Part shown: in pieces, positions 4,385 to 64,000 of the stretch | How the letters are laid out: each line of letters begins with the position of its first letter | Numbering within the stretch: position 1 is the first letter of the stretch | Assembly: GCF_964355755.1 (NCBI RefSeq) | Contig: NC_092671.1 | Location: 22,642,070-22,706,069, forward strand | Direction: 5' to 3' | Length of the DNA stretch: 64,000 bases | From: Antedon mediterranea | Lineage: Eukaryota > Animalia > Echinodermata | Made by a program: the position numbers and the translations under genes | The notes under the pieces: model-generated | Seen by the model: the letters and a program-made list of their open reading frames with translations, nothing else | What the model was told of the DNA's origin: nothing | Database searches by the model: none

Positions 4385-4400
4385 CTGTTTCATCTTTTTT

Positions 4401-5080: not shown

Positions 5081-5292
5081 ATTTTTTGAGTGCAGCAGAT
5101 CTAAAAAAACAGCGGTAGCATGTTGTATGTTGTAACTTGACCAGCTGATGCACGTATATGTAGTTGTGCAACAAACTATGGTTTAATGAAAATATGGTCG
5201 CGTAGCGTAACTACGCGCAATTTTCTGAAATTCTTAGATTGACTATAAATTGAAAACCAATATATATTTTTATATACCACTTGACACACGTA

Positions 5293-33353: not shown

Positions 33354-33687
33354 TACTCTTATTTCATCGAAAATAAATTTTGAAAATTTTAAGCGCGCGT
33401 ACGCATGCGTTACATGCGCTACGCACGTAATTGTATTGCCATATGATGATTTATGCCCTGAAATTTATGAGTACCAAATTTTATTTAATTGTGATTCATG
33501 GTTGTTAAGATATAATTACAAACGTGATTTCGTTAAATCGTGCGTAGACCGCGTAATTTTTTATTGCGCACCGTGAAAACATAACCACATCGATTCCTGG
33601 CTATAAGAAATATTCTGTGAAAAATTGACTTAGCTAGATTAAACTGATATCAAGATAAGGTCATAAAGCGATAAAACGCATAGTGAT

Positions 33688-34053
<366 letters not shown>

Positions 34054-36343: not shown

Positions 36344-36415
36344 GGTTATCCGCACTTGGCGGATAACCCCTTGTTATTGTCAGGATCTTTTTTTTTTGTT
36401 TTTTTTTTCTTTATT

Positions 36416-37970
36416 AGTTATCCGCTTAGTAGCGGATAACTCCTTGTAATCGTCCTGTTTCATCATATTTTTTTTTCTTTTCTGTATTATGCTTCTTTCC
36501 TTCTGTCATTTTTGTGCGTCGCGTTTCTCTAAAACGTGTAAACAGAATATATCGTAACTTTGTCAACATATCGACATTTACGTGAACTTGTGCACCTCCT
36601 ATTTTTGAATGACGTCAGAGTTGCGCAACGTGACTTATGCGCGATTTTATGAATTTCAATGATTGATCATAGACTAAAAACCAAACATAATTTTGTTTTG
36701 ACACTGTGTGAAAATTTAAGTCATATCAAGCGCAAACTTTCTATGGATTAAAAATAGCATGTTTCACAAAAAGTTACGCGCGTGCGCGTTTAAAATTTTA
36801 GAGAGCGAAAAATCAACTTCTAATCAACTTTCTATGCGTTTCATGTCATTTTGAGCATCTCAAAAATTCCCACGCGCGCGAAAATGTTTACGCACGCGGT
36901 GCACACATAGATAAAAAACATATTTTTTCCGCGTGATTTATGTTTTTTCAGCCTTTTCTAGTAATTTTACCAAATTTTAAACAATTTCGACTTAAAATTA
37001 CGTCATATGAGCACGTCGAATTAGATAATTTGCACGCGTTTTTGGTGAAAAAGTTCAAAAATTCGTCAAAATTATGCCTATTTTTAAACATTCATAGATT
37101 CTAAACTACATGGAGAACTGTTTTTTAATTACATATTCTGGAAGTTGATGAGTTGTAGATATTTGATCATACATTAATATGGCTAACCGGACATTGTGAC
37201 GTCATCGTATGGCCACGCGAATATAAAATATAGGATTTTTGTCTCTTTCGTCATAGCTCATCACATTTAATAGAGCGCATCTCCACTTATTCGTTGTCCA
37301 TTTTCACCCCGATTTTAATATATTCTAGGTCAATCAACTATCTTTTGCATGAATTAAAAATTTTTTAATTTTTTTAACGTCATCATGCCTAAAAATTTAA
37401 ATTACGTTGGTCATTAATTTCATCTTTACAGTAAATTTTAATCTGTTATACCTCGTAAGAATAAAATGTGATAATCACGATTAAAACGTTTTCAGGAAGC
37501 TATTGTATTGTAGATACAAAATCATGTGAAAATTGTGCCAATTGAATGTTGTGACGTCATCATATGGCCAGTTAAATAAAAAAGTCGTATTTTCATCTTT
37601 TGCGTTATATTTCATTACATTTAAAAGAGCGCGCATCAATATTTCACGTATTCAAATTTCTTCTACACGTTAATATGTTGTTGCTGAGATAATTTCATTC
37701 TGAAATTTCTACTTTTGCATTTCATTTTGAAACCCTCAACATGTTAAAAATTACAATAAATAGCGGGTCCCGTAATTTCACCTATTCTACACTGTATGTG
37801 ATATGTATACAGATTACACTGTGTATACTATGAATCAAAATAATAGAATTCAGCACTAACAACATATCATAGTCTTCAGTTCAGGTCATAATGCCATAAT
37901 CTTTTTCCGTGTGCAATATTCCAACGTATGGCGTGCACAAGGCGTTTGTCGTGCGGAGTTTCATGTCTAG
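36416..37970 (+). mobile_element. Helentron-like element (A-type ends) nested in the 5' T-rich tract of the G-type copy
   Basis: Begins AGTTATCCGCTTAGTAGCGGATAACT and ends TTTCATGTCTAG|T (hairpin partly deleted); highly similar, inverted, to 61383-62933. Confidence 0.75.
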
Positions 37971-38677
37971 TTCTTCTTTCTTTCCACGAATTTTGTTCGC
38001 AGCGTATCTCTAATTCTGGCCAACATATGATTGTATAACTTTGTCAAAAGATTGCCCTGCAGCTGTAGATGTGCAAGAAACTTTTTTTTATGAATTTTGA
38101 GTCGCGCAGCGTAAGTTACGTGCGATTTTATGAATTTCAATGATTGATCATAGATAAAAAACAAAAAGTCATTTTGTATTGAAACTTGGTGAAATTTTAA
38201 GTCATATGAAGCGCAAACTTTCTATGGATTAAAATGGCAGGTTGCCCAGAAAGTTACGCGCGCACGCGCGTTTAAAATTTCAAAATGCGAAAAATCAACT
38301 TCTAATCAATTTTCTACGCGTTTCATGTCATTTTGAGCATTTCAAAAATTCCCAGCCGTGCGCAATTTTTTTACGCGCGCGTGCGCACGTAGTGCAAAAA
38401 CATCTTTTTTTTGTTTGATTTTTGTTTTTCCAGCCTTTTCTAGTAAATTACACAAACCAGTAGTGGTGTTTAGTAGTCTATGAGTGCTAGCTTACCTGTA
38501 TAAACCGACAATAGCCCGTGCTCTCCAGAGGGAGGGCTTAGATACGAAAGTGAAAAGTTCCTGGAACACCCCTGTATTATAATGGACCCGTCCGCAACCA
38601 CGCCCTCATGTGGGAACGTACCAACGTACCACCGTCATCATTTTCCGCGTACTTGACTGCGGGGACGGCGGGAGGGA

Positions 38678-38776
38678 GTTTATACAGGTAAGCTAGCACT
38701 CATAGACTACTAACACCACTACTGGTTTGTGTAGTCTATATCGTGCCTAACTTACCTGTATAAACCGACAATAGCC
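38678..38776. repeat. DIRS internal complementary region (ICR)
   Basis: 38678-38732 is the reverse complement of the left end and 38733-38776 is the reverse complement of the right end, joined head to tail. Confidence 0.93.
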
Positions 38777-38851
38777 AGATTAGCACCGGACTAGAACTAG
38801 TCGGCGGTGGGAGTAAGTTAACAAAAAGCAGAGCAAGTGAAGTGTACATAC

Positions 38852-41708
38852 CTATAACCTAGGCTTTAGCACTGCTGCTGCTACTGGCGCCATGGTTGCA
38901 GAAATGTCCCTTAAATAATGCGCAGTAAATGTAGACTGTGTCCGCCACCATGCCGCTGTCATAATGTCTGATACAGCAACGCCAGCATACAACGCCCAGA
39001 ATGTAGCAACACCCCGCACCTCATGCATATGTGCCGGCGGCAAAGTGCTGGATGACTCTTAAGCGGCCCGAATCGCTGCCACGACCCAGTTAGCAATCGT
39101 GGATTTTGCGGCCGGCCGATACGGGGGCACCGATGTGACGAATAAGTGAGATATACCCTCTCGCAACGTCTCTGTACGGTGGATGTAGAATTTGAGTGCT
39201 CTTACCGGGCACCAGAATTTGTCTTCTACTACCCCCGAGAATGCGGACATTGATGGAACGAACACAGCCAGCGGCGAAAAATTTAACGTCTGGGACTTGG
39301 CCAGAAAGTCCTTCCTGAATATTAACCGAACTCCGCCACGCTCGAATCTTATGGCCTGGCTCTAGCATGAGCGCATGTAGCTCGCCTCGGCGTTTACATG
39401 AGGACAACGCCACCAGAAACGCTGTCTTAAGCGAAAGATTGTATAATGAAGCCTTGCTCATTGGCTCAAATGGCGGGCGAGTGAGTGCGGATAGAACGAC
39501 GTTAACGTCCCAACGTGGAACTAAGACCTTAGACGGAGGTCGCTCTCTGAACATACCGCGTAACAACTGCGTGATTACTGCGGAAGTTGAAGCCGTCGAG
39601 CCATCCTTGAATGGCGGCGTAATGGCCGCAATCGCGGACCGGTAGCCTGACACCGTGCGCACTTGCAAGCCTGACTCGTACAGGTAATGCAGAAACGCGC
39701 AGATCTGACCCAAGGATATCGCCTTAGGGTCTATGTTATCTTGTCTGCACCAGCGAAAGAAGTGTCGTAGACGGCTGTTGTAGACAGTGAGAGTCGACTC
39801 TCTTCTAGATTTGGCCGCCAGGGCGGCTGGGCTGTCCGGAATGCCCGAGTCTCTGAGCTGATCCCTGACAATGGCCAAACAGTCAGGTTCAGGGATTGTA
39901 GATTGATCGTCGAGAACCTCGCACGATTTTGCGTCTGTAGATCCGCGCAGACCGAAAGACGCAGCGGGTGATCGTAAAGAAGACTGGCAAGAAGCGGATA
40001 CCACGCTTGTCGAGGCATTAACGGTGCGATCAACAGAACTCGGCATCGGAAGCGCTGAATGTGAGTCAGAACTATTGGTATGATCGATATTGGCGGGAAC
40101 GCGTACGCCCATAAACCGTCCCATGACATGGACAGGGCATCCACCGCCCACGCACGTGCATCCCGGAATCAACTGCAGAACGTCGAGAGCTGCGTGTTCT
40201 CTGACGTCGCAAACAGATCTATGTGCGGCTGTCCGAAGTGGTCGAATATTTGGGTGGCTATGCTCGGCAACAGACGGCATTCGGTCGGGCGTAAAGCGAG
40301 TCGGGACAGCGTGTCCGCGACTACGTTGTGGCTGCCCGGAATATGCGATGCAGTCAGCGTTATTCTGTGCGCGATGCACCAGTGTATGAGCGTCCATGTG
40401 TGGTAGCAAAGAGTCGGAGACTTCGTGCCTCCTTGTCGGTTGACGTACGCGACCACGGTTGTGTTGTCCGAGCAGACATGGACGTGTGAATTTTCTATGT
40501 TTGGAAGTAGCGCTTTCAACGTTCGGTCTACTGCCCAAAGTTCTAAGAGATTGATGTGGGCTAACGCCTCCTCGGCACTCCAAACGCCGGAGACGTGACT
40601 TTGGTTGGAGCAACAGCCCCAACCCGCTTCGGACGCGTCCGTTTCTATTCGGGTGTCCGGAATTGATCTCTGAATTGATCTGCCCACTAACAATCGGCCG
40701 TCCGTTAGCCACCATTGGAGGTGCGTTACAATGAACGCCGACATCGGGACCACTTTGTCTAATGAGTCTGAACCTGGCCGGTAGAAGGCTAACAGATGAA
40801 GTTGCAGCGCCCGCATCCGTAGCCGACAAAACGGAACTAGATCTACAAAGCTGGCTAGGAAACCTAGCGTTCTCAGCCAGTCGTATGCTGTCGGAGCGGA
40901 AGCGGTAATCAGGCCTTGTATAGCAGCAAGGGCTTTGGTTACTCGTTTCTGTGAGGGGCACACTCTGCCCGACACGAGATCTATTTGCGCTCCGAGATAA
41001 ATGGGATGCCGAGTCGGCACCAGGCACGACTTCTCCCGGTTCACAATGAACCCTACGCGTTCCGTTACGAGAAGGACGAAATTGAGACTGCTCACCAGCC
41101 GGTCCTTGGACTGAGCCACGATTAACCAGTCGTCTAGATACATGGATATGCGAATGCCGTGCTTGTGAAAGAACGCACCGAGCGCCCGAACTATGCGCAT
41201 GAACACGCGCGGGGCCGTTGATAGACCGAACGGCATCGCGACGAACTGGTAAAGACAATTGTTGATTCGAAACCGCAACCAACGTTGGTCTTCTTTTGCG
41301 ATTGGTACGTGAAAGTACGCATCTTTTAAATCTATCGATGCGGCCCAGTCTCCTCGTCTTAGCCCTAACAGGATCGATGAGACTGTCTCCATCCGAAACA
41401 TGCGGGGCCGAATAAATCGTTTGTTCAGACGTTTTAGATTTAAAAATGGTCGCCAGTCCCCCGAGGACTTCTCGGTTAAGAATACGGTTGATTCGTGGCC
41501 CGAGCCCGCATGATGTTCTTCGACCCTTACTACGGCTCCTTTTTGGAGCAGCGCGGCAATCCCGTCCATAAGCGCTCGTTGCTTTATTGGATCTTTGGGG
41601 ATTGTGGTCGGACGAGGACCTCCACACACTGGCGGGCTCGTGAATTCTATGCGGTAGCCGTAGCTTAGTGTGGAGAGAATCCAGCTGTCTACCATCAGCT
41701 TCTCCCAC
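38852..41708 (-). pseudogene. DIRS ORF3, tyrosine recombinase (frameshift ~39349, in-frame stop 39059-39061)
   Basis: KTAFLVALSSCKRRGELHAL; after the shift FLAKSQ, CPVRAL, HEVR, AAWW..STF..HYL give the R-K-HxxR-W-Y catalytic set. Confidence 0.9.
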
Positions 41709-42049
41709 TCTCGGACGAACCGTAAGAGACGACCTCCCACTGGTCCGGCCCCCGACGGCACGGACCTCGCCTGCACGTCACCGGTACCTGCGGTCACCCC
41801 GTCGCGAACCGCGGTCCCGACGTGCTCCCCTACCCGGCTTACCGCCACGCGCGGGGCGGGAATTACGGGGTCGCGACGGCCCAGGAGTCTGCCCAACCTC
41901 AGACTGATTATGGACCGACGGCGGCGGTTGTGAGACAGTACGCGATGGCACCACCGGCAGTGGGGCTGGAGGCTTTGGACGCGAGTGCGAACGGCTCGCC
42001 TGGCGTTTCGGAAAACGCGATCTTGTCTCGCGACGTGCCTCTCGCTCAC
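39731..42049 (-). pseudogene. DIRS ORF2, reverse transcriptase + RNase H + methyltransferase-like domain (in-frame TGA at 40169-40171)
   Basis: DLKDAYFH, MPFGLSTAP, YLDD, ETDAS..GWG, HINLLEL, SDNTT, N.VAD.LSR, IDLFA, then FCS*FRDARAWAVDAL...YAFPP in the same frame. Confidence 0.92.
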
Positions 42050-43325
42050 GAGCCCACTTATCTTCCTTCTCGGCGAAATTACCGTAGAAGAGATCCACAG
42101 CAGCGAACGACTCGCTAGTTGTGAAGCGGCGGTAGTGCGCGGGCGCGATGTCCGTGGCCTGGAGGCAATTGACCCTCCGCGCGGCGGCCGAGGTCATTGC
42201 AATAGTCGCTTGTTGGTCCGCGACCAGGCCCGTAATCTGCTGAAGCAAGCAGATCACGTCCGCGTCAAGGTGCTATGGATGGTCCGGATCCGCGAGGAAT
42301 GACAAAAGGTAGCCCGACATCGAGACCGTTCGTAACGTCTCGCGTGCGCCACGGTCGACCGCGATTAGCGCCTCCTCAGTTTTAGCGGCTGAAGGAGACA
42401 GAAATCTGCCATTGGCGTCGAGACCTTGATCCTCGCGCGCACGTTCTTTCGCTGCATCCGGGATCGGTGGTGCCGATATATAGCGTAGAAACTGGTCCTG
42501 TGGAAGCGGGAAGGCTGCTGCTAGATCTTGAGGTGCAGCTCTACGGGTCTTAGGCTCCTTCGCTATAGCCTCAACCCTAGCGACCAGTTCGGGATCCAGC
42601 GGCGCAACTGGACAGGTTGTGACCCGCTTCAATGGAGCACGCACTCCAAAGGTAGAGTACTTCTTCGAAGCCGGCGCGGGCGTCGGCGCGTCAAAAGCGT
42701 ACTCCACTCCAATGTACGAAAGTACAGCAGGAACCACACGATTGACAAGAGCCTGCAAACCGTCTCCACCCTGTGCAACCTCGGAGCGCTCCTCACTAGG
42801 CAGCGAGGTCATGGTCCTGTCACTGTCGTACTTACCGGCATCCGGCGATGGGTGCGTCCCTTGACCTTGAAAGTACTGCAGAGGCAGTACCGGCACAGGG
42901 GGGTAATTAAGCGAGGATGCCGAAGGCACAGCCTCCCTCGGTAGAGCTCGCACCGCTGCTGCGATGGCCTCCAGTACAGCTGGGGACAAACCCTCGTCCT
43001 GCGTACCACTCTGCGGTGGAGGCGCAGCGGCCGTTGCAGGCGCGTCCGGCAAAACTTCCGGCACTTCGATCTCTTCTACTAGCGGGGCCGGGGGCTCCAC
43101 CTGAACCTCCGCGGGTGCGGGGTCTACCACCCGCGCACGCCCCGACGGACGAGGCAACGTCCGGAACCGCGAAGCCGTCCAATGTACACAAATGTCGCAC
43201 GGCGACTCCTGGCTACAGGTGCGGCAGTGAATGCACAGCAAGTGGCGGTCCCACTTGACCGTCGCACGCTGGCCCCTGCATTGCACACATTCAGACTTAG
43301 GCATATCGGCGGACACAGCACGCAA
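41778..43325 (-). pseudogene. DIRS ORF1, gag-like (in-frame TAG at 42273-42275)
   Basis: N-terminal CxxC..H..CxxC..C...CxxC cluster and Pro/Ala-rich region; ORF 41778-42257 continues in the same frame after the stop. Confidence 0.8.
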
Positions 43326-46300
43326 CCTAGCAAGATAAGGAACAATACAACCTTTGTTGTTGCCTCACGCAACAGTGCGTCCACGCCTCAGTCCAGGTGA
43401 CAAAGCAAAATTCCTTTCCTTTGTGTTTAGTAGCGTGGCCGTTGAACGGCCTAAAATCCAATGAAAACTGGTATTTTCCTTGTTTTAATCTTTCTTATTT
43501 CTACCCGAAATAAGGAAGACCCCGATTTGAAACGGATCCAAAGCAAAAAACGATATACAGTATCAAACTATCAAAAGCTGTACCGCAACCGGCGTCTTTA
43601 TAAGGTGTTCGTAAGTAGGCTAGTATAGCATGTACAACGTACACAAGGCTAACACTCAGCGTATCTTTTCTCACACGTCGTAACGTTCTCACGTTACGAA
43701 AGAAAATGATGATGGTGGTACGTTGGTACGTTCCCCACATGAGGGCGTGGTTGCGGACGGGTCCATTATAATACAGGGGTGTTCCAGGAACTTTTCACTT
43801 TCGTATCTAAGCCCTCCCTCTGGAGAGCACGGGCTATTGTCGGTTTATACAGGTAAGCTAGGCACGATATAGACTTACCAACTTTCAAACAATTTGGACT
43901 TAAAATCACGTCATACGAGCACGTTGAATTGAAAAATTTGCGCTCGTTTTTTATGAAAAAGTTCAAAAATTCGTGAAAATTATGCCTTTCTTTAAAAAGT
44001 CATAGATTCTAAACTCTGTGGTGAACATTTTTAAAATTTCAGATTCTGGAAGTAGATGAGTTGTAGATATTAAATCATGCATCGATATGGCTAACTGGCC
44101 ATTGTGACGTCATCGTATGACCACTCGAATATAAAATATAGGATTTTTGTCTCTTTCGCATAGCTCATCACATTTAATAGAGCGCATCTCCACTTATCCG
44201 TATTCCATTTCCCCCCCCCCATTTTGTTATATTGTCTAGGCCAATCAATTATCTTTCGAATGATTCACCATTTTAAAAATTGTGATGACGTCATCATGTC
44301 CAAAAGCGTCAATAACTTGGGTCCCTTATTTTCACCTATTCTGCACTGTATGTAGTACGTATACAGAATATAGTGTATACCGTATATACTTTGACGTGAC
44401 GCAAAATAGAGAGCGCACTAACATTTTTTCAATGGCATAATCGTTTTTCTGCGCGCAATATTCTAACGTATGACGTGCAGGTGGCGTTTGCGCTGCGGAT
44501 AACCTAACTCGTCCGTAGTGACGAGTTCAAATCTAGTTCTATTTTATATCACTGTGCTCCACTGGTGCTAAATTTGGTCCACTGAACCAGTTACCATAGT
44601 ACTATTTCTATTTCGGATGTAAATAAAGGCATAAATGGCGCTCCATAGAATTAGAGAATGCTCAATCGTCGAAATGACGCTCTGAATATACCTCCTTATA
44701 CACCGAAATATACGGTATTTGCATTAGCAATATCCTATCATATACTATAAATAATTAAAGACTCTGAAAAAATCAATCAGTCAATATATCTTTTAAAAAT
44801 CAATTATCTTTATTTAAATCAATGCATATACCTATAATTCGTCATAGTGACGAATTAAATTTAGTTCATTTTTCTTTTTATGTACTAATGTAATTTGTAA
44901 CTAGCAATTTGGCCTCTGGCCGGGAGATGTTATATTTAGATATGTGATGTGATGTGATGAGATGTTTTTAATTAAATTGAATTGAATAAAATAGATATGT
45001 CTTTATTATTATTATATAACAATGGTGACTTATGACATTATACGCAGCTCGACGTGCAGTGATACCGGTTATTGTATTTGCTATTTACCGGGAGTCGTCA
45101 TCGCAATATAGCTCATCATCGCATGCTTTGTTTACAACCCTTTGGAAAAAACGACGAACACGTTAGTACATGTTTAGAGTACTAACAATCATAAACTATC
45201 GTATTCGAGTCTGTTTTGATCGTTTATCCTGATTAAAAAACGATCACAGACTTTACACCCTCTAACCACCGCGGTAATTGGTTTAACGAACGAACGAGTG
45301 GCATTAATCCAATTAATTTCCACGCGATATACATAAACAATAGAGTATCAGAAAAAAGGAGGAGCTAAACTGAAAGGCGATCTCTGGTGGTGGTGCTTGT
45401 GGTGTGTGTGCGCGTTACGTTTTGTGTGATCGTGTTCGAAATTAAACTGCAGTTTTTTCTTAAAATCGTTGGGGAAAATTTTGGCCTCGCAGGCCGGCTA
45501 TCCCTGCTAAGGAACAGAGGATACAGTGATGCTGTCGGTGAGATGCGAGTGTAGATGTTCTTCTGGAGAAGTGGCTGTGAGGTGTGTGTTCTGTGAAATG
45601 GCTGTGAGGTGTGTTCTTCTGAACCTTGGGGGTATATTGGCTTCGGTTCATTAGCAAATGTCATTACGTTGTCTCAGAGGTTACTGATTGGTCCTAAGTT
45701 GATCCAGGGGTGTTTAAGTGGGAGTGATTGATCTTATCTGGGGAGGTTACAATGATGAATTGGCCCTGTCGAATCTATGCTTAAAACTGTCAATATCTAA
45801 TTGTTTTACGATGGGAACGGTTAGAGAGGTCAAATAGACTGTTTACTTTTATGATTTAATTATGAACTAAATGGTTAATTTCTCCACTGGTCTTTCTGGG
45901 CCAAGTTCGTAAACTTAGTTGAATTCTAATACAAAGGTTGATTTCTTAATTATAAATGTATATCATTACATTACATTTTATAATAATTTATGAATAAAGG
46001 ATGAATAAATGAGGAAATAATTTATGTAGGAAATGTTCTCACTCCTCCAAATCAATCATTATGGTATTAATGTCAAGTTCTCCTTTATGCTCTAATTATT
46101 TCAAAAAGAATATCCATCGGTGCGAGAAATCTGTTTGTGGAAATAATATTCCATTCTTCTATGAATTTTTTAGGCTGTCAATTTACAGTTTTCTTGACAG
46201 AATAACAAAAAGAAAATTGTTACTTTTTACTAGAAATTCTGTAGTTTAAAAAGAAATCTTAAATCTTGAAGAAAAAAATTATCTTTGAAATAATTCTGTC

Positions 46301-50885: not shown

Positions 50886-51362
50886 TTAATTAATTTTTTG
50901 AAACACGCAAATGGCCTAATTCATGCTCTAAATTGATCAAAACTTAATTTTGAGCTTTTTAAATTTTTAACGCGCGATTTCACGCGCATGACCCTACGTG
51001 TGCGCGCGTTTTTATTTGTTAATATTTTTACCCTTGACCTAAAGTTTACGTGTAGTGAATTTCATTAATATGTGATAATGAATTATGGAGATATGATTGA
51101 TAATGTGATTTTACAAAATGGCATATAAATGACGTCACGGATGAGTGATCACGCTGAAAAGCTTATTAGGATTAAGTTATATTATTTGAAAGATATTATG
51201 AAATTTTGGTAATCATTGACATTAAACTTTTTGAGATAATTGTTACACAAAATAGTGTACAGAAACAATAACATTAAAGATTTGATACAATAACAATAGG
51301 TGATCATTTAAATTTTTATTGCAATTTTTAACATGTCGACGATTTTAAAATGAAACGTGAAG

Positions 51363-53103
51363 CTACGCTCGCGCTAACCGCTCGCCAATTCGCCAATGGC
51401 GACTGGAGTCTCCATTTGGCGAAAATAATTATTGCCTCGTTCGCCAAATTGGCGAAAATACATTTCCAAGCCTAGGCCTAGCCTGGTCGGCGTGACTTCT
51501 TATGGGAGCGAGAATTCGCCACACTTCGGTACTTTCTGACTCGGGTAAACTTTTTACCACAACAGCATTTTATGTGACGACGTCACGATCGCCGTGTTAA
51601 TTGTTTTAGTTCTGTTTAAACATGCGCAGAGCGTGCCTCGATGACGTTTTAATGACACACAGTTAATGTGATTGGTTCGTGGCCGGCCGTCGTCGACGTG
51701 ATGATGAGCGAATAAAAGGGGAAGTCCCTATTCTTCGACGTAGAAAATGAACTTCGAGAAGAAAATGTAAACAGAAACATGTGGACGAATACTTCCGTAA
51801 ACGAGGCTGTTCTGTTATTTAAAAAGGGGAATTTTAAATTTAACAAAGTAATTACCTCAATAGTATAATGTTAACATGTTTAATTTTATTTCCCTTTCGA
51901 TTATTCTAACCGAAAGTTGCGCTTTAAATTGAATAGCTAAGAAACAGCGTATACTGCAACGGCAACCATGGCCAAAGCGCGTTTCGGCCGCCTACATAGA
52001 ATGGGTTACGGCCGCTGCATAGCAAATTCAAAGCTTCTTAAATTTCTGCGGTACATTTCTTGTTTTATATAATAGATTGATAAATATTCCAATTATTAAA
52101 TAATTTAATAAATCGGTAAAATTGACGTTTCGAAATATTCCATGATGAGAGGTGACATTTTTCGACATGCCTCGTGTGCGGCGAAGACTAGTTCAGAAAA
52201 TGGAACAGTCCACTGCGGGGGTTATCCAATCATTAATTAACGCGCTAATACATGCATACCATGCACATTGCCTGGGCGACGGTAATTTAGTAATAAGCGA
52301 AGAACTGAATGGAAAATGGTAAACACTGATATTTATGGTAGGGATTATTTTTTTCAGGGGTTGGTCTTGTTGGCCTCTTCGCACGAGGTCCACGCAAAGT
52401 CAAATAAAACGATGTGTTTTATCAAACAGAAATATAAATTAGCTTCAATTAGCCAGATTTTGATAATTAGAAAGACTCAAAAATTCAATTTTTATCGTTA
52501 AAATTGACATTTGAGGCGGATGTATATAATAATAATAACCGATTTACATATCAAAATAAAGAGTATTTAAAGCCTGATAACATGCAACAAAAATTACTCC
52601 ACCACCTATTATGAACCTCGTGCGATCGGGTGCGAAAATGGGTAGGTGTTTTCCAAAGTTATTTTTAGCGCGCGGATTTCGGCTCGCCGGCTTTTGTACC
52701 TCATTTTTAACTCGCGTTTTCTATTAAAATATTTAATAAACATAGATTATAAATATATAAAAATAATCCATTAAACAAGATCTTTCCAGGCATATAATTT
52801 TTATTCGCATGGGTACATAAGAAATAGTATATTTTTAACTTCAAAGACACGTCACTTTTTGAAATTTCACGAACGTGTTAAAATCCCGGTAACAAAAATC
52901 AGGTTCATTGGGTAACCTAATAATAATATAAATGTAAAAGAAATAAAATATAAAAAAAATACATGCATTATTTATTTAATAAACATTTTTTTCAAATTTT
53001 TATGGTTTTTTAAATTTGGCTAAAGGATTTTCAATTTGGCTAATGTATTTCAAAACCTTTCGCCATTTTGGCGAACGAAAATTTGACCTTAGCGCGAGCG
53101 TAG
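51363..53103. mobile_element. Non-autonomous TIR element (hAT-like)
   Basis: CTACGCTCGCGCTAA ... TTAGCGCGAGCGTAG with TGAAG duplicated; subterminal TCGCCA/TGGCGA repeats at both ends. Confidence 0.8.
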
Positions 53104-56100
53104 TGAAGGTAGCAATTTCGGAAGGAAATTATTTCAGCAACAACATATTAACGTGTAGAAGAAATTTGAATACGTGAAATATTGATGCGCGCTCTTTTAA
53201 ATGTAATGGATTATGACGCAAACGATGAAAATACGACTTTTTTTATTTAACTGGCCATATGATGACGTCAAAACATCCGATTGGCAAAATGTTCACATGA
53301 TTTCCTATCTACAATCCATTAGCTTCCAGAAAACGTTTTAATCGTGATTATCACATTTCATTCTTACGAGCTATATCAGATTAAAATTTACTGTAAAGAT
53401 GAAATTAAAGACCCACGTAATTTAAATTTTTAGGCATGATAATGACATAACAATTAAAATACAGTAGTTTTAACTCGTGTAAAAGATAGTTGATTAACCT
53501 AGAAAATATCAAAATCGGGGTGAAAATGGAAAACGAATAAGTCGAGATGCGCTCTATTAAATGTGATGAGCTATGACGAAAGATACAAAAATCCTAAATT
53601 TTATATTCGCGTGGCCATACGATGATTTCACAATATACGGTTAGCCAAATGTATACATGATTCGATATCTACAACTTATCAACTTCCAGAATATGTCATT
53701 CACAAAAAGTTGATCGTGTAGTTTAGAAATTACAACTGTTTAAAAAAAGGCATAATTTTGACGAATTTGTGAACTTTTTCATCAAAAACGCGCACAAATT
53801 GTCCAATTCGACGTGCTCGTATGATGTAACTTTAAGTCGAAATTGTTTTAAAAGTTTGTAAAATTACTAGAAAAGGCTGGAAAAACATAAATCACGCGAC
53901 AAAAATATGTTTTTAATGCTACGTGCGCACCGCACACGTAAAAAGTTGCGCGCACGTGGGAATTTTTGACATGCTTAAAATGACATGAAACGCGTAGAAA
54001 GTTGATTAGAAATTGATTTTTCGCATCCTTAAATTTTAAACGCGCATGCGCGCGTAACTTCGTGTAAAGCATGCAATTTTTTTTGCACAAAAACATAGCG
54101 CATTAAGATATAAATTAAACTTTTGATAAGTTTCAAATTAAAATGTTATATGGTTTTCGATCTATATCAAATACGCGAAATTCATAAAATCGCGCGTAAG
54201 TCACGTTGCGTAATTCTGACTTCATTCAAAAATAGGAGGTGCACAAGTTCACGTAAATGCCCACATGTTGACAAAGTTATAAAATGTTATGTTTACACGT
54301 TTTTGAGATACGCGACCCACAAAAATGACAGAAAGAAAGAAGAACTAGACATGAAACTCGTCACTTTGACGAGTTAGCTATCCGCTCGACAAACGCCACA
54401 TGCACGTCATACGTTGGTGGAATGTTGCACACAGAAAAAGATTATGGCATTATGACCTGAACTGAAGAATATGATATGTTGTTAGTGCTAAATTCTGTCT
54501 ATTTTGTGTCATGTAGTATATACATTTTAAAGTACACAGTATAATCTGTATACACGTAATTTAAATGTTTAGGCATGATGATGTCATAAAAAATAAATAT
54601 TTTTAACTCATGCATAAGATAGTTGATTGACCTAGACAATATTAAAATCTCGGAGAAAAAGGAATACAGATAACCGTGATGCGCTCCATTTAATGTGATG
54701 AGCAATAACGAAAGAGACAAAAATCCTATATTTTACATTCGTGTGGCCATACGATGACGTCGCAATGTCCGGTTAACCATATTGATTAATGATCCGATAT
54801 CTACAACTCATCACCTTCCAGAATATGTAAGTAAAAAAAAAGTTTACCTCGTAGTTTAGAATCTATGATTGTTTAAAAAAAGGCATAATTTTGACAAATT
54901 TTTGAATTGTTTCATTAAAAACACGAACAAATTGTACAATTCGACGTGCTCGTATGACGTAATTTTAAGTCTAAATTGTTTTAAAATTTGATAAAATTAC
55001 TATAAAAGGCTGAAAAAACATAATTCACGCAAAAAATATGTTTTTAGCGCTACGTGCGGACCACGTCAATGTCATGATCAGCGTAGAAAGTTGATTAGAA
55101 ATTAATTTTACGCATTTTAAATTTTAAATGCGCGTGCACGCGTAACTTCGTGTAAAACATGCCATTTTTAGTGCACAAAAAGTTAGCGCAAGATATAAAT
55201 TAAACTTTTGCTAAGTTTCAATTTAAATTGTTATATGGTTTTCAATCTATGTTAAATACGCGAAATTCATAAAATTGCGCGTAAGTCACGTTGCGCATTT
55301 CTGAGGTCATTCACAATAGGAGGTGCACAACTTCACGTGAATGCCCATATGTTGACAAAGTTATGAAATGTTATGTTTACACGTTTTTGAGATACGCGAG
55401 ACACAAAAATAGAAAAATGCGCGTGCAACGTCTTGTAAAACATGCCATTTTTAATCCACAAAAAGTTTGCCCTAGATATGACTTAAATTTTTACAAAGTG
55501 TCAAAAAACAATTATGCTTGGTTTTTAATCTATGATCAATCATTAAAAATCATAAAATTGCGCGTAAGTCACGTTGCGCAACTCTGACGTCATTCAAAAA
55601 TAGGAGGTGCACAACTTCACGTAAATGTCCATATGATGACAAAGTTATGAAATGTTATGTGTACAAGTTTTTGAGATACGCGAGACACAAAAATGGAGGA
55701 GAAAGAAAGAAGAATAATACTAGACATGAAACTCGTCACTTTGACGAGTTAGTTATCCGCTCGACAAACGCCACGTGCACGTCATACGTTGGAATGTTGC
55801 ACACGGAAAAAGATTATGGCATTATGACCTGAACTGAAGAATATCATATGCTGTTAGTGCTGAATTCTGTCAATTTTGTGTCATATAGTATATACAGTGC
55901 AAACGGTATAATCTGTATACATGTTACATACAGTGTAGAATAGGTGACATTAGGCGACGGTATCAAAATGAAACACTAAGATAGCAATTTCGGAAGGACA
56001 TTATCTCAGCAACCATATATTAACGTGTAGAAGAAATTTGAATACGTAAAATATAGATGCGCGCCCTTTTAAATGTGATGAACTATTACGCAAAATATGA

Positions 56101-59100
56101 AAATACGCCTTTTTTTTATTCAACTGGCCATATGATGACGTCACAACATCCGATTGGCAAAATGTTTACATGAATTCGTATCTACAATCCCATAGCTTCC
56201 AGAAAACGTTTTAATCATGATTATCACTTTTTATTCTGATGAGCTATAACAGATTGAAATTTAAATTGAAAATTGTTTTCAACGCTACGTTCGCACCATG
56301 CGCGTAAAAAAATGCGCGCGCGTGGGAATTTTTTACATGCTTAAAATTACATGAAACGCGTAGAAAGTTGATTAGAAATTGATTTTTCGCATTTTGAAAT
56401 TTTAAACGCGCGTGCGCGCGTAACTTCGTGTAAAACATGCCATTTTTTCCCTATAGTCAGTTAGCGCAAGATATAACTTAAACTTTTTGTCAAGTTTCAT
56501 ATTAAATTGTTATATGGTTTTCGATCTATGTTAAATACGCGAAATTCGTAAAAACGCGCGTAAGTCATGTTGCGCAACTCTGACGTCATTCAAAATAGGA
56601 GGTGCACAATTTCACATAAATGCCCACATGTTGACAAAGTTATGAAATGTTATGTTTACACGTTTTTGAGTTACGCGTGACACAAAAATGACAGAAAGAA
56701 AGAAGAATACAGAAAAACTAGATTTGAACTCGTCACTTTGACGAGTTCGGGTTATCCGCGCAAAGGCAACATGCACATACTTTAAACTATATGAACTTCG
56801 ACAAATATTATGCCATCCTATGACATGAATTAAACATGTTTACAGTGCTGAATTGTACCTATTATGTAGCATACAGCATGTTATAGAATACACTGTTATA
56901 TGTTATATACAGTGTAGTATAGACGAAATTACGAGACCATCTTTTCAATCCAATTAATAACACGATGATGTCATCAAATTGACATATAAAGAAAACTATT
57001 TTAGAAGATAATTATCCAAATAATTACATTAATACAAATTTGAAGAATTTTGGGCACGTAAAAGTGACATGCGCTCTCGTTTAAACGCAATGAACTTTTA
57101 CGCAAAGGATGAAAATACGACTTTTTTTATTCAACTGGCCATATGATGACGTCACAACATCTGGTTGGCAAAATATTTACATGAATTCGTATCTACAATT
57201 CAATGACTTCCAGAAAACGTTTAAATCATGATTATCACTTTTTATTCTGACGAGATATAACAGATTAAAATTTACTGTAAAGATGAAAATAAGTGACCCA
57301 CGTTGTTTACATTTTTAGACATGATGACGTCATAAAAATTAAAATATTTTAACTCCTGCGAAAGATAGTTGATTGACGTAGACAATATTGAAATCTCGGA
57401 GGAAATGGAATACGTATAAGCGAGATGCGCTCTGTTGAATGTGATGAGCAATAACGAAAGAGACAAAAATCTTATATTTTATATTCGAGTGGCCATCCGA
57501 TGACGTCACAATGTCCGGTTAGCCATATCGATGCATGATTTGATATCTACAACTCATCTACTTCCAGAATCTGAAATTTTCAAAATTTTTACCACGGAGT
57601 TTAGAATCTATGACTTTTTAAAAAAAGGCATAATTTTCACGAATTTTTGAACTTTTTCATCAAAAACGCGCGCAAATTGTTCAATTCTACGTGCTCGTAT
57701 GACGTGATTTTAAGTCGAAATTGATTGAAAATTGGTAAATTTACTATAAAAGGCTGAAAAAACAAAAATCAAGCAAAAATAGATGTTTTTTGCGCTACGT
57801 GCGCACGCACGCGTAAAAAAAAAGCGCACCCGTGGGAATTTTTGAAATGCTCAAAATGACATGAAACGCGTAGAAAGTTGATTAGAAGTTGATTTTTCGG
57901 TTATTGAAATTTTAAACGCGCGTGCGCGCGTAACTTTCTGTGAAACATGCCATTTTTAATCCATAGAAAGTTTGCCCTTGATCTAACTTAAATTTTCACC
58001 AAGTGTTATTACAAAGTGACTTTTATTTTTTATCCTATGATCAAACATTGAAATTCATAAAATCGCGCGTAAGTCACGTTGCGCAACTCTGACGTCATTC
58101 AAAATATGGAGGTGCACAACTTCAGGTAAATGTCTATATGATGACCAAGTTATACAATCTTATGTTGACAAGGATGAGAGATATGCATGCAACAAAATTC
58201 CGGGAAAGAAAGAAGAATAAAGAAGATGAAAAAAAAAAAAAGATATTTACAATAACAAGGGTTATCCGCAACTTCAAAAGTTGCGGATAACCAAAAAGAT
58301 GATGAAACAGGACAGTTACAAGGAGTTATCCGCTGAATGCGGATAACTAAAAAACTAGATTTGAACTCGTCACTTTGACGAGTTCGGGTTATCCGCGCAA
58401 ACGCAACATGCACATACTTTAAACTATATGAACCTCGACAATTATTATGCCATCCTATGACATGAAATAAATGTGTCTACATTGCTGAATTGTACCTATT
58501 TTGTAGCATACATCATATTACAGTATTTACAGAATACACTGTATAATTATGTTATATACAGTGTAGCATAGATGAAATTACGAGACCCATCTTTTAAATC
58601 GAATTATTAACACGATGACGTTATCAAATTGACATATAAAAATAACAATTTTAGAAGATAATTATCTAATTAATTACATTAATACAAATTTGAAAAATTT
58701 TGGGCACGTAAAAGTGAGATGCGCTCTCGTTTAAACGCAATGAACTTTTACGCAAGAGATGAAAATACGACTTTTTTTATTCAACTGGCTATATGATGAC
58801 GTCACAACATCTGATTTGAAAAATGTTCAAATGAATTCGTATCTACAATCCAATAGCTTCCAGAAAACGTTTTAATTATGATTATCACTTTTTATTCTGA
58901 CAAGCTATAACAGATTGAAATTTACTGTAAAGATGAAAATAGGTGACCCACGCTATTTACATTTTTTGACACGATGACGTCATAAAAATTAAAATATTTT
59001 TAACTCATGCGAAAGATAGTTGATTGACCTAGACAGTATTAAAATATCGGAGGAAATGGAATACGTATAAGCGAGATGCGCTCTATTTAATGTGATGAGC

Positions 59101-62100
59101 AATTACGAAAGAGTAAAAAATCCTATATTTTACATTCGTGTGGCCATACGATGACGTCATAACATCTGAGAAGTAAAAATTCTGCATAAGTTCATATCTA
59201 CAATTTATCTTCTTGCATAATAAGTTAAAAAAATTGGGGGTCACCTTCGATCATGAAGAGCTATAATAGATTCAAAATAGGCATTATTTTGACAAATTTT
59301 CTAAATTTTTCAACAGAAACGCGCGCAAATGGTCTAAATCAACGTGCTCGTATGACGTAATTTTAAGTCGAAATTGTTTAAAAGTTGGTAAAATTACTAG
59401 AAAAAGGCTGAAAAAACATAAACCACGCCAAAAAATCTGTTTTTTAACGCTACGTGCGCACCGCGCGCGTAAAATATTTTGCGCGAGCGGTAATTTTTGA
59501 CATGCTCGAAATGTCATGATCACCGTAGAAAGTTGATTAGAAATTATTTTTGCGCATTTTGAAATTTTAAATGCGCGTACGCGCGTAACTTCTTGTAAAA
59601 CATGCCATTTTTAATCCATAGAAAGTTTGCCTTTGATATGACTTAAATATTCACCAAATGTCAATACAAAATGACTTTTGGTTTATAATCTATGATCAAT
59701 CATTGAAATTCATAAAATCGCGCGTCACTTACGCTGCGCGACTCTAACGTCATTAAAAATATGGAGGTGCACAACTTCACGTAAATGTCCATATGTTGAC
59801 TAAGTTATGAAATGTTATGTTTACAAGAATGACAGATATGCGTGACACAAAATTCTGGGAAAGAAAGAAGAACTAGACATGTAACTCGTCACTTTGACGA
59901 GTTAGTTATCCGCTCGACAAACGCCACGTGCACGTCATACGTTAGAATATTGCACACAGAGAAATATTAAGGCATTATGACCTGAACTGAAGAATATGAT
60001 ATGTTGTTATTTCTGAATTCTGTTATTTTGTGTCATATAGTATACACAGTACAATCTGTATACATATCACAAACAGTGTAAAATAGGTGAAATTACGGGA
60101 CCCGTATTTTATTGTAATTTTTACTATCTTGACGGTTTCAAAATGAAATGCAAAAGTAGAAATTTCAGAATGAAATTATCTCAGCAACAACATATTAACG
60201 TGTAGAAGAAATTTGAATACGTGAAATATTGATGCGCGCTCTTTTAAATGTAATGAAATATAACGCAAAAGATGAAAATACGACTTTTTGTATTTAACTG
60301 GCCATATGATGACGTCACAACATTCGATTGGCACAATTTTCACATGATTTTGTATCTACAATACAATAGCTTCCTGAAAACGTTTTAATCCTGATTATCA
60401 CATTTTATTCTTACGAGCTATAACAGATTAAAATTTACTGTAAAGATGAAATTAATGACCAACGTAATTTAAATTTTTAGGCATGATGACGATAAAAAAA
60501 TTAAAAAATGTTTAATTCATGCAAAAGATAGTTGATTGACCTAGAATATATTAAAATCGGGGTGAAAATCGACTACGAATAAGTGGAGATGCGCTCTATT
60601 AAATGTGATGAGCTATGACGAAAGAGACAAAAATCCTATATTTTATATTCGCGTGGCCATACGATGACGTCACAATGTCCGGTTAGCCATATTAATGCAT
60701 GATTCGATATCTACATCTCATCAACTTCCAGAATATGTAATTAAAAAAAAGTTCTCCATGTAGTTTAGAATCTATGACTGTTTAAAAATAGGCATAATTT
60801 TGACGAATTTTTGAACTTTTTCACCAGAAACGCGTGCAAATTATTTAATTCGACGTGCTCGTATGACGTAATTTTAAGTCGAAATTGTTTAAAGGTTGGT
60901 AACATTACTATAAAAGGCTGAAAAAACATGAATCACGCGAAAAAAATATGTTTTTAACTCTAAGTGTGCACCGCGTGCGTAAAAAGTTTCGCGCGCGTGG
61001 GAATTTTTGACATGCTCAAAATGACATGAAACGCACAGAAAGTTGATTAGAAGTTGATTTTTCGCACTCTAAAATTTTAAACGCGCGTGCGTGCGTAACT
61101 TTTTGTGAAACATGCTATTTTTAATCCATAGGAAGTTTGCGCTTGATGTGACTTAAATTTTCACAAAGTGTCAAAACAAAATTATGTTTCGTTTTTAGTC
61201 TATGATCAATCATTGAAATTCATAAAATCGCGCGTAAGTCACGTTGCGCAAGTCTGACGTCATTCAAAAATAGGAGGTGCACAAGTTCAAATAAATGTCG
61301 ATATGTTGACAAAGTTACGATATGTTCTGTTTACACGTTTTAGAGAAACGCGACGCACAAAAATGACAGAAGGAAAGAAGTACTAGACATGAAACTCGTC
61401 ACTTTGACGAGTTAGTTATCCGCTCGACAAACGCCACATGCACGTCATACGTTACAATATTGCGCACAGAAAAATATTAAGGCATTATGACCTGAACTGA
61501 AGAATATGATATGTTGTTATTTCTGAATTCTGTTATTTTGTGTCATATAGTATACACAGTACAATCTGTATACATATCACAAACAGTGTAAAATAGGTGA
61601 AATTACGGGACCCGTATTTTATTGTAATTTTTAACATCTTGACGGTTTCAAAATGAAATGCAAAAGTAGAAATTTCAGAATGAAATTATCTCAGCAACAA
61701 CATATTAACGTGTAGAAGAAATTTGAATACGTGAAATATTGATGCGCGCTCTTTTAAATGTAATGAAATATAATGCAAAAGATGAAAATACGACTTTTTT
61801 TATTTAACTGGCCATATGATGACGTCACAACATTCAATTGGCACAATTTACACATAATTTTGTATCTACAATACAATAGCTTCCTGAAAACGTTTTAATC
61901 GTGATTATCACATTTTATTCTTACGAGGTATAACAGATTAAAATTTACTGTAAAGATGAAATTAATGACCAACGTAATTTAAATTTTTAGGCATGATGAC
62001 GTTAAAAAAATTAAAAAAATTTTAATTCATGCAAAAGATAGTTGATTGACCTAGAATATATGAAAATCGGGGTGAAAATAGACAACGAATAAGTGGAGAT

Positions 62101-64000
62101 GCGCTCTATTAAATGTGATGAGCTATGACGAAAGAGACAAAAATCCTATATTTTATATTCGCGTGGCCATACGATGACGTCACAATGTCCGGTTACCCAT
62201 ATTAATGCATGATCCGATATCTAAAACTCATCAACTTCCAGAATATGTAATTAAAAAAAAGTTCTCCATGTAGTTTAGAATCTATGACTGTTTAAAAATA
62301 GGCATAATTTTGACAAATTTTTGAACTTTTTCACCAAAAACGCGTGCAAATTATGTAATTCGACGTGCTCGTATGACGTAATTTTAAGTCGAAATTGTTT
62401 AAAAGTTGGTAACATTACTAGAAAAGGCTGAAAAAACATAAATCACACGAAAAAAATATGTTTTTAACGCTACGTGGGAATTTTTGACATGCTCAAAATG
62501 ACATGAAACGCATAGAAAGTTGATTAGAAGTTGATTTTTCGCATCCTAAAATTTTAAACGCACGTACGCGCGTAACTTTTTGTGAAACATGCTATTTTTA
62601 ATCCATAGAAAGTTTGCGCTTGATATGACTTAAATTTTCACAAAGTGTCAAAACAAAATTATGTTTGGTTTTTAGTCTATGATCAATCATTGAAATTCAT
62701 AAAATCGCGCGTACGTCACGTTGCGCAACTCTGACGTCATTCAAAAATAGGAGGTGCACAAGTTCACGTAAATGTCGATGTGTTGACAAAGTTACGATAT
62801 GTTCTGTTTACACGTTTTAGAGAAACGCGACGCACAAAAATGACAGAAAGAAAGAAGTATAATACAGAAAAAAAAAAAAAATTTGATGAAACAGGACGAT
62901 TACAAGGAGTTATCCGCTACTAAGCGGATAACTAATAACAAAGAAGATAAAAAAAGAAACGTGACAATAACAAAGGTTATCCGCAACTTAAAAAGTTGCG
63001 GATAACCAAAAAAAAAAAAGATGATTTCATACAGTTACAAGGAGTTATCCGCTACTAAGCGGATAACTAATAACATAGAAAAAGAATCTGGACAATAACA
63101 AGGAGTTATCCGCTCAATGCGGATAACTATAAAGAAAAACTAGATTTGAACTCGTCACTTTGACGAGTTCGGGTTATCCGCGCAAACGCAACATGCACAT
63201 ACTTTAAACTATATGAACTTCGACAATTGTTATGCCATCCTATGACATGAATTAAGTATGTGTACAGTGTTAAATTGTACCTATTTTGTAGCATACAGCA
63301 TATTACAGTATTTACAGAATACATTGTATGTTATATACAGTGTAGCATAGACGAAATTACGAGACCCATCTTTTAAATCCAATTATTAACACGATGACGT
63401 CATCAAATTGACATATAAAGATATTTTATATTAAGATAATTATCTAAATAATTACATTAATACAAATTTGAGGAATTTTGGGCACGTAAAAGAGAGATGC
63501 GCTCTCGTTTAAACGCAAGGAACTTTTACGCAAGAGATGAAAATATGACCTTTTGAATTCAACTGCCCATATAATGACGTCACAACATATGATTGGCAAA
63601 ATATTCACATGAATTTGTATCTACAATCCAATAGCTTTCAGAAAACGTTTTAATCATGATTATCACTTTTTATTCTGACGAGCTATAACAGATTGAAACT
63701 TACTGTAAAGATGAAAAAAGGTGAACCGCGTTATTTACATTTTTAGACATGATGACGTCATAAAAATTAAGATATTTTTAACTCATGCGAAAGATAGTTG
63801 ATTGACCTAGACAGTATTAAAATATAATATGAGGAAATGGAATACGTATAAGCGATATGCACTCTATTTAATGTAATGAGCAATAGCGAAACAGTCAAAA
63901 ATCCAATATTTTACATTCGTGTGGCCATACGATGACGTCATAACATCCGAGGGGTAAAGATTCTGCATGAATTCATATCTACAACATATCTGCTTACATA
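53104..64000 (-). mobile_element. Nested/tandem array of ~1-1.6-kb non-autonomous Helentron/Helitron2-like elements
   Basis: CTAG + AACTCGTCA-CTT-TGACGAGTT hairpin + GTTATCCGC ends at 54345, 55720, 56718, 58355, 59873, 61383 and 63140. Opposite-end GTTATCCGC..GCGGATAAC hairpins at 58260, 58324, 62908, 62975, 63043 and 63104. No TSDs; A|A (T|T) junctions. Confidence 0.8.

What the first reader, a model, noticed from the sequence alone, without database searches (positions are those of the whole stretch)
51300..63140. Self-targeting Helentron-like family builds a last-in-first-out nested stack
Seen: each CTAG/hairpin end sits in the AGAAAGAAAGAAGA(A) tract of the preceding copy, tens of bp short of that copy's other terminus. 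The missing termini reappear stacked at 58260-58348 (2) and 62908-63128 (4). They parse like brackets: open [body before 54345], 54345, 55720, 56718; close 56718, 55720; open 58355, 59873/61383 (counted as one dimer); close 61383, 58355, 54345, outer. The spacer before each stacked hairpin continues the interrupted tail. For example CTGGGAAAGAAAGAAGA|...|ATAACAAAGAAGATAAAAAAAGA matches the intact tail at 58201-58260, and AATACAGAAAA|...|AAAAAGATGAT matches the intact copy at ~4490-4510. Established: Helentrons/Helitron2 have subTIRs, a 3' hairpin near CTRR-like ends and TT targets without TSD. Inference: the family preferentially targets one narrow window of itself, so the terminal array records insertion order and what looks like a satellite is a nest. 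I do not know whether this has been described.
Basis: partly seen in the sequence, partly recalled or inferred. Interest (0 to 1): 0.82.

Follow-up and report, generated by a model that had tools for sequence, protein, structure and literature searches.

The report
Rolling-circle transposons nested inside themselves
What looks like a 12-kb tandem repeat is a Russian-doll stack of a 1.55-kb gene-less jumping element, with the displaced front ends piled up in reverse order; it likely grew because each copy carries, just inside its front end, the T-rich landing site that new copies prefer, a habit already proposed for fungal relatives.

Summary
The nest is real. Seven 3' ends (CTAG plus hairpin) and six stacked 5' palindromes parse as brackets. 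Removing inner copies by coordinates gives continuous hosts, and the last-in-first-out pairing ranks 1 of 24 on a junction score (an ends-only test ranked it 4 of 24). One 5' end is missing (E/F pair), the outer copy lost its 3' end, and an eighth copy runs off the window. Termini fit non-autonomous Helitron2/Helentron (HINE). Insertions fall 56-75 bp inside the host's 5' end in the same orientation. A separate nest at 36.3-44.5 kb uses the same site, and public contigs show such junctions at other loci, but also many dispersed copies. TT availability does not explain the clustering. A longer T/pyrimidine motif, fitted after the fact, does, so a self-carried landing pad suffices and protein homing is unproven. 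Self-insertion giving up to five 5' termini is already reported for Fusarium FoHeli1 (PMC5148889, PMC13342296); I found no report of whole preserved nests. This scan noted the same thing on three other pieces of this genome. No genome was held and no transposase was found. New variant of a known kind; interest 0.42.

The parts
51294..54344 (-). Outer copy B0, body only; its CTAG/hairpin end is lost and it is split by a foreign element at 51363-53103. Strand here and below is the element's inferred 5'->3' strand by HINE convention.
   Evidence: profile positions 228-280 and 273-1505
51363..53103 (.). Foreign element with 15-bp inverted termini and a 5-bp TGAAG duplication, inserted in the body of B0
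54345..55719 (-). Copy A body (internal deletion and partial duplication), inserted 60 bp inside B0's 5' end
55720..56717 (-). Copy B body (about 500 bp internal deletion), inserted 67 bp inside A's 5' end
56718..58292 (-). Copy C, intact, 1575 bp, inserted 56 bp inside B's 5' end
58293..58348 (-). Displaced 5' end of B (TGAAT loop, as in B's nearest intact relative J)
58349..58354 (-). Six bases of A's A-run between B's end and D
58355..59872 (-). Copy D body, second insertion into A's tail, 61 bp inside A's 5' end
59873..61382 (-). Copy E, inserted 74 bp inside D's 5' end; it has no 5' end of its own
61383..62933 (-). Copy F, intact, 1551 bp; 12-bp asymmetric inverted repeat, 5' hairpin, TTTC tract, 3' hairpin, CTAG; 96.8% like E
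62934..63007 (-). Displaced 5' end of D (long-loop palindrome ending in C, as in intact copy C)
63008..63068 (-). Displaced 5' end of A (TACTAA loop, as in F and I)
63069..63128 (-). Displaced 5' end of B0 (TCAAT loop)
63140..64000 (-). Copy G, opened 11 bp after the last stacked end in an A/G-rich spacer (likely the tail of a further host); runs off the window
36344..44536 (+). Second nest, host H in three pieces (44536-43875, 38449-37971, 36415-36344), split by a 5.4-kb DIRS-like retroelement and by copy I; H itself sits in an unrelated repeat
36416..37970 (+). Copy I (1555 bp, 95-96% like E and F; 3' hairpin partly deleted), inserted 72 bp inside H's 5' end at the same site as A in B0 and E in D
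3221..5282 (+). Third, decayed nest: partial copy J with intact 5' end at 4451, then a second 5' end split by a small foreign element (about 3730-4384), then a new CTAG end at 3688, 2 bp after that end
34062..36026 (-). A-like copy K with a diverged copy L opened in its GA tract at 34851; no closing ends found

Best explanation
This is a nest of gene-less elements with Helitron2/Helentron (HINE) termini, likely built by successive rolling-circle insertions, each new copy landing 56-75 bp inside the 5' end of a resident copy, likely because the element carries its own preferred target there: a T-run followed by a long pyrimidine (TTTC) tract just behind the 5' hairpin. Shown: the anatomy, the continuous rejoined hosts, the clustering of sites, the single orientation and the reverse order of the stacked ends. 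Inferred: a RepHel enzyme encoded elsewhere moves the copies through a circular intermediate. The insert brings a T at each end, so the landing site is regenerated and a second one is imported, and the stack feeds itself. The tract is on one strand only, which fixes the orientation. Each insertion pushes the host's last 56-75 bp outward, so 5' ends pile up last-in-first-out. The missing end in the E/F pair is most simply F inserted in E, followed by collapse of two adjacent near-identical 75-bp ends (inferred, untested). My odds: about 0.9 for nesting by insertion and about 0.6 that sequence preference is the main cause of the hotspot.
For: Rejoined hosts are continuous and near full length. 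The bracket pairing ranks 1 of 24 in 8 of 8 scoring schemes. The last base of each 5' end matches the inverted-repeat variant in the head that the parse assigns to it in 6 of 6 testable copies (A, B, C, D, F, H; read). The same site is used in hosts B0, D and H, which are only 77% alike, while inserts E and I are 95% alike, so these are separate events and not one mobile composite. Heads: 11 of 13 lie in or within 11 bp of a family 5' region (one of them a likely related family), 0 in family bodies, 0 inverted; 3 of 4 foreign insertions into the family lie in bodies. The strict motif has 6 of 6, 12 of 12 and 7 of 7 sites in the tail window of F, C and I. One of the two non-family sites has 13 of 14 purines on the + strand (base rate 0.4%). 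Run X6 contigs show tail-to-head and stacked-end joints from other loci. Helitron2/HINE prefer T-rich targets (PMC4067079, PMC3627910, passages), and Helraiser's flank preference is strongest on the 3' side (PMC4778049, section 10).
Against: The motif was fitted to the same sites it explains, so one search shows that it suffices, not that it is the cause. The other non-family site (H) has only 10 of 14 purines, and the head at 3688 has 8 of 14 and abuts a 5' end, which the motif does not predict. The deepest joint shown in run X6 is a 5' end directly followed by a head (depth 2379), which fits concatemers or binding at the terminus. The ends-only pairing test ranked the parse 4 of 24. Branch lengths made the inner copy look younger in only 4 of 8 pairs. 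One closing end is missing. One opposite-strand joint appears in X6 (63068->63103) and was not resolved. No listed contig reproduced this stack's own junctions exactly. No transposase was found.
Confidence: 0.7

Rival explanations
1. Protein-tethered homing: the RepHel-circle complex binds the 5' inverted repeat or hairpin of a resident copy, or meets it while it is melted for initiation, and integrates at the nearest T-run. The nest is the same, but self-recognition, not the tract, sets the hotspot.
For: Narrow 56-75 bp distance. A head 2 bp from a 5' end at 3688 without a purine tract. End-to-head joints at depths 2379, 794 and 312 in X6. A FoHeli4 inserted 2 bp from another FoHeli4's 5' end (PMC5148889, passages and section 6). 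HUH nucleases cut only single-stranded DNA (PMC4778049, passage), and the 70 nt behind the 5' hairpin fold into no structure.
Against: A plain motif already accounts for the counts (P=0.20). Distance and tract position are confounded in every copy. Helraiser, a Helitron1, showed no clustering near donor sites in 701 events (PMC4778049, section 10). Many copies sit in unrelated DNA.
Confidence: 0.25
2. Tandem amplification (unequal crossing-over or rolling-circle concatemers) made a satellite-like array, and the stacked ends are separate small duplications.
For: E and F are adjacent, 96.8% alike and share one 5' end. Abutting end-to-head joints exist in the genome. A 25-bp end segment is triplicated at about 4400-4475. 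Tandem Helitron copies are known (PMC5148889, PMC7492417, passages).
Against: Neighbouring copies are 78-84% alike and belong to different subfamilies. Each stacked end is different and matches its own host. A concatemer would join whole ends, not internal tail sites. E is not a D/F recombinant: E-D identity tracks F-D in all 11 windows. This may explain the E/F pair only.
Confidence: 0.04
3. Assembly artefact: collapsed or mis-joined reads of a high-copy repeat.
For: The family is very abundant. The best run holds 64% of sampled words, and no listed contig spans the stack.
Against: Copies differ by 3-25%. Junctions are base-precise and balance over 12 kb with subfamily-matched ends. E and F differ at 45 columns spread along their length. 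Independent contigs show the same junction types at other loci.
Confidence: 0.01

Closest known systems
FoHeli1 (Fusarium oxysporum Helitron2) with multiple 5' termini (PMC5148889: abstract, passages, sections 6, 7, 10, 16; PMC13342296: passages)
   Same: Helitron2-type termini; the first 31-85 nt of the 5' end are repeated, up to five termini per copy; explained by self-insertion near the 5' end; target preceded by TNAT.
   Different: There the stacked ends are seen on mobilised composites and the nest is a proposed intermediate. Here the whole nest with all host bodies is preserved and parses last-in-first-out, in a non-autonomous family, apparently in an animal.
HINE / DINE-1 non-autonomous Helentrons (PMC4067079, PMC2374699, PMC7492417: passages) and Helitron2/HLE2 (PMC3627910: passages; PMC11417382: passages and section 18)
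   Same: Short asymmetric inverted repeats, 5' hairpin, microsatellite behind it, 3' hairpin, T-rich target, no coding region. Xenopus HelenXT233 has two tandem left termini.
   Different: The passages read report no hotspot for self-insertion and no deep nests. This family has no central tandem array, and its autonomous partner is unknown.
Nested maize Helitrons with multiple termini (PMC3288121: passages)
   Same: Helitrons insert near or inside other Helitrons; 28.7% of helAs have multiple termini, derived from nests.
   Different: Canonical Helitron1 termini; no narrow insertion window or ordered stack reported in the passages read.
Alu-into-Alu hotspot (PMC2836564: passages); same-site double insertion as a seed of satellites (10.1101/158386: passages); SaTar arrays (PMC5907723: abstract)
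   Same: An element's own A/T-rich tract, or a regenerated target, draws further copies in one orientation.
   Different: Alu is a retroelement with target duplications; double insertions give tandem dimers; SaTar arrays are explicitly non-nested.

Membership tests
Non-autonomous Helitron2/Helentron (HINE, HLE2) | Short asymmetric inverted repeats: one at the 5' end, one 20-60 bp from the 3' end | tested here: met
   12-bp perfect pair in F and 10-bp in C, the 3' copy ending about 31 bp from the terminus; the two variants co-vary between the ends
Non-autonomous Helitron2/Helentron (HINE, HLE2) | 5' hairpin formed by the 5' repeat | tested here: met
   z -6.9 (F) and -7.6 (C); 0 of 200 shuffles as stable
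Non-autonomous Helitron2/Helentron (HINE, HLE2) | 3' hairpin downstream of the 3' repeat | tested here: met
   9-bp stem, z -3.1 and -4.0; 1 and 0 of 200 shuffles as stable
Non-autonomous Helitron2/Helentron (HINE, HLE2) | T-rich (TT) target | tested here: met
   6 of 6 reconstructed sites have TWWT on the 5' side; 5 are T^T and 1 is T^A
Non-autonomous Helitron2/Helentron (HINE, HLE2) | No target-site duplication | tested here: inconclusive
   Rejoined tails of B0, D and H, and H's site against a paralogous repeat, carry two extra A/T; this fits terminal Ts of the element or a 2-bp duplication. The T^A site favours the former. No orthologous empty site was available.
Non-autonomous Helitron2/Helentron (HINE, HLE2) | No coding capacity | tested here: met
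   3 of 45 stop-to-stop frames of at least 100 aa fall in the stack (100-108 aa), none recurring between copies; these three were not scanned against Pfam
Non-autonomous Helitron2/Helentron (HINE, HLE2) | Autonomous RepHel partner with the same termini | not testable with these tools
   No genome held; no RepHel-sized frame recognised in the window (7 of 45 frames scanned); none among the 8 scan notes shown
Canonical Helitron (Helitron1/HLE1) | 5'-TC start, A^T target, no inverted repeats | tested here: not met
   Starts T-AG or T-GG with an inverted repeat; targets T^T or T^A
Canonical Helitron (Helitron1/HLE1) | 3' hairpin then CTRR | tested here: met
   Hairpin followed by CTAG-T
Satellite DNA / tandem array | Head-to-tail monomers joined end to end | tested here: not met
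   Junctions are internal to the tail and the missing ends are stacked downstream

The most novel reading that the evidence does not exclude
The transposase of this family homes on the 5' hairpin of resident copies, so the family actively builds ordered self-nests across the genome. The stacked 5' ends are then a readable tape of subfamily succession, and some apparent satellites in animal genomes are such nests.
Probability: 0.25. Interest if true: 0.65.

Novelty: new variant of a known kind. Interest (0 to 1): 0.42.

Why it matters
It shows directly the intermediate that was proposed to explain multiple 5' termini of Helitron2 elements. It points to a simple safe-haven strategy: an element that carries its own best target fills old copies rather than genes. 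Nests give the relative order of subfamilies without a clock, and the many natural insertions would let the target rule of Helitron2 enzymes be measured. Repeat annotators would likely mislabel such stacks as satellites or fragments.

Tried and rejected
No whole genome is held, so the genome-wide histogram and the search for an autonomous partner could not be run. The 20-nt hairpin motif found 2 metagenome loci, both chance matches with no other similarity to the element, and 0 viral loci. Laying contigs on F whole gave mostly internal deletions among the rows shown (15 of 103 joints, 24 of 1306 loose ends). One search showed 15 of 22 joints and 12 of 235 loose ends, so no fraction of nested against dispersed copies can be given. 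The ends-only Mantel test did not single out the bracket pairing (4 of 24; 7 of 120 with H). The junction-aware test was designed after that result; with H included it ranked 2 of 120. Terminal branch lengths as an age proxy agreed with nesting order in 4 of 8 pairs and depend on how many relatives the window holds. 28 of 41 rows of the permissive head search were dropped by eye as lacking the hairpin. Rejected: one mobile composite behind the repeated site (hosts 77% alike, inserts 95%); E as a D/F crossover product; TT or AA availability as a sufficient null. A look-up of earlier findings by sequence returned nothing. Paper searches listed no paper describing whole last-in-first-out Helitron2 nests. 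Most subscription journals and Repbase are not covered, and the Fusarium supplements (Table S6, Fig. S11) were not read and may show such nests.
Full report
What is there. The region 51.3-64 kb holds eight copies of one repeat, 75-97% alike. On the + strand each opens with CTAG, a 9-bp hairpin and GTTATCCGC (54345 A, 55720 B, 56718 C, 58355 D, 59873 E, 61383 F, 63140 G). A complete copy closes with a GA-rich tract, an A-run and a GTTATCCGC..GCGGATAAC palindrome. On the - strand this is the plan of a non-autonomous Helitron2/Helentron: a 5' inverted repeat folded into a hairpin, a TTTC tract, the body, the 3' inverted repeat, a hairpin and CTAG-T (plan as in PMC3627910 and PMC4067079, passages). 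Only C and F are uninterrupted. The outer copy B0 has lost its CTAG end and is split by a foreign element. Earlier scan notes call the organism a feather star; I did not test that.

The bracket parse. Palindromes end at 58292 and 58348, then at 62933, 63007, 63068 and 63128. Cutting out inner copies by coordinates gives B 1054, D 1592 and A 1442 bp with tails that align without a break to intact tails; A and B have internal deletions. I tested the order three ways. A correlation of body similarity with similarity of the last 50 bp ranked the last-in-first-out pairing only 4 of 24; it resolves D but not A, B and B0. A score of each rejoined tail against intact tails, designed after that result, ranked it 1 of 24 in 8 of 8 scoring schemes. 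Third, heads with GGTTATCCGC (C, D, H) pair with ends closing in C and heads with the A variant (A, B, F) pair with ends closing in T, 6 of 6 testable (read). The parse is one closing short: E has no end. E and F are 95-99% alike in every 150-column window, and E is no closer to D than F is, so E is not a crossover product of D. F inserted in E followed by collapse of two adjacent near-identical ends is my reading; an old duplication is not excluded. A joint of the same kind occurs in run X6 at depth 1220, about four times the depth of most single contigs listed.

The hotspot. Insertion points lie 60, 67, 56, 61, 74 and 72 bp from the host's 5' end, and 75 if F-in-E is counted. All are in the host's orientation. 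A second nest at 36.3-44.5 kb on the other strand has copy I inside host H at the same site used by A in B0 and E in D. H and D are 77% alike while I and E are 95% alike, so these are separate events. Of 13 heads in the window (13 kept of 41 permissive matches), 10 lie in or within 11 bp of a family 5' region, 1 in the tail of a likely related family (30842) and 2 in unrelated DNA (44536, 44864). None lies in a family body, whereas 3 of 4 foreign insertions into the family do. AA/TT availability cannot give this: 3-4% of such sites are in the window, and 0 of 200,000 simulations matched.

Why there. All six reconstructed sites have TWWT on the 5' side, and the five nested ones are followed by at least 12 of 14 pyrimidines. 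With that stricter motif, every site in intact F, C and I falls in the tail window (6 of 6, 12 of 12, 7 of 7), and finding 4 of 6 heads in or beside tails outside the main stack has P=0.20, against 1e-7 for plain sites. The motif was fitted to these same sites, so this shows that sequence preference is enough, not that it is the cause. Independent support is thin: one non-family site has 13 of 14 (base rate 0.4%), the other 10 of 14. Against a pure motif, the head at 3688 abuts a 5' end with 8 of 14, and the deepest joint shown in X6 is a 5' end directly followed by a head (depth 2379). I commit to the self-carried landing pad as the main cause (about 0.6) and keep enzyme tethering at the 5' hairpin as the rival (about 0.25). 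The circular intermediate and the enzyme acting in trans are inferred from Helraiser and FoHeli1 (PMC4778049 passages; PMC5148889 passages).

Elsewhere in the genome. No assembly was held. Nine public runs from four studies hold part of the stretch. In X6, summed depth over F is 0.5-3.9 million against about 230-340 for most single contigs listed, which suggests thousands of related copies; the tool warns that this is no copy number. Among the joints shown are tail-to-head (62818->63131, 62831->63138, 62857->63149; also 62840->61392), end-to-head (62933->63138, 62935->63149, 62936->63149, 63078->63138) and end-back-to-tail (62940->62888). One contig with 11 differences bridges the 63068/63069 junction, so stacked ends exist at another locus. 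But 23 contigs carry a head with unrelated flank (agreement 0.48), and one joint is on opposite strands. Only part of each table was shown, so no fraction can be given, and this stack's exact junctions were not seen in a listed contig.

Age. Terminal branch lengths made the inner copy look younger in 4 of 8 host-insert pairs. The young trio E, F and I is innermost in both clear nests, but the window samples subfamilies too thinly for a test. Inconclusive.

What is known. Stacked 5' termini by self-insertion are described for Fusarium FoHeli: the first 31-85 nt are repeated (PMC5148889 sections 10 and 16), with up to five termini in one copy (PMC13342296 passages). Xenopus HelenXT233 has two left termini (PMC11417382 section 18). 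Maize Helitrons nest and yield multiple termini (PMC3288121 passages). Alu has a sense-strand self-insertion hotspot at its A-rich linker (PMC2836564 passages). Same-site double insertion seeds satellites (10.1101/158386 passages), and SaTar elements form non-nested arrays (PMC5907723 abstract). Passages of PMC4067079, PMC2374699, PMC7492417 and PMC3630058 report no self-insertion hotspot. Seven searches listed no paper on whole ordered Helitron2 nests; subscription journals, Repbase and the Fusarium supplements were not seen. Three unreviewed notes of this scan report the same architecture on other pieces of this genome, one with sites 37-81 bp inside the front end; they are not independent support, and I could not confirm by sequence that it is the same family.

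Verdict. It works like, and on terminal structure is, a non-autonomous Helitron2/HINE; the autonomous partner is untested. The process is known in outline. The preserved multi-level nest with a measurable landing window is a new variant. Interest 0.42.

Noticed in passing
window 38451-43874: DIRS-like retroelement (RT frame 40169-42193, tyrosine-recombinase-type SAM domain in frame 39090-41777, inverted ends 38487-38645 / 43702-43861 at 98.8%) inserted in the body of copy H. The DIRS label is recalled from this layout.
   Followed up: partly
window 51363-53103: 1.74-kb element with 15-bp inverted termini and a 5-bp duplication, no frame of 100 aa or more; superfamily not identified.
   Followed up: partly
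window 32164-34061 (relatives at 13657-16165): A different repeat with a long GACA microsatellite, itself interrupted, inserted in a family body.
   Followed up: no
window 50860-51293 and 30643-30841: A likely related family with a similar GA/ACAATAACAA tail (86.7% over 150 bp); it precedes B0 and hosts a head at 30842, so the landing pad may be shared across families.
   Followed up: partly
window 4400-4475: The outer arm of a 5' palindrome is repeated three times in tandem (25-bp unit), a second route to stacked end motifs.
   Followed up: no
window 3730-4384: Small element with CCCATA(G/A)CAAAAA inverted termini inserted in a displaced 5' end.
   Followed up: no
window 19447-21881: Broken non-LTR retrotransposon reverse transcriptase frames (RVT_1 hit).
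   Followed up: partly
window 24990-27839: Run of overlapping frames of 127-243 aa on the + strand between repeated flanks (21688-22465 / 24029-24809 inverted), possibly a decayed transposon gene; 2 frames scanned, no Pfam hit.
   Followed up: partly
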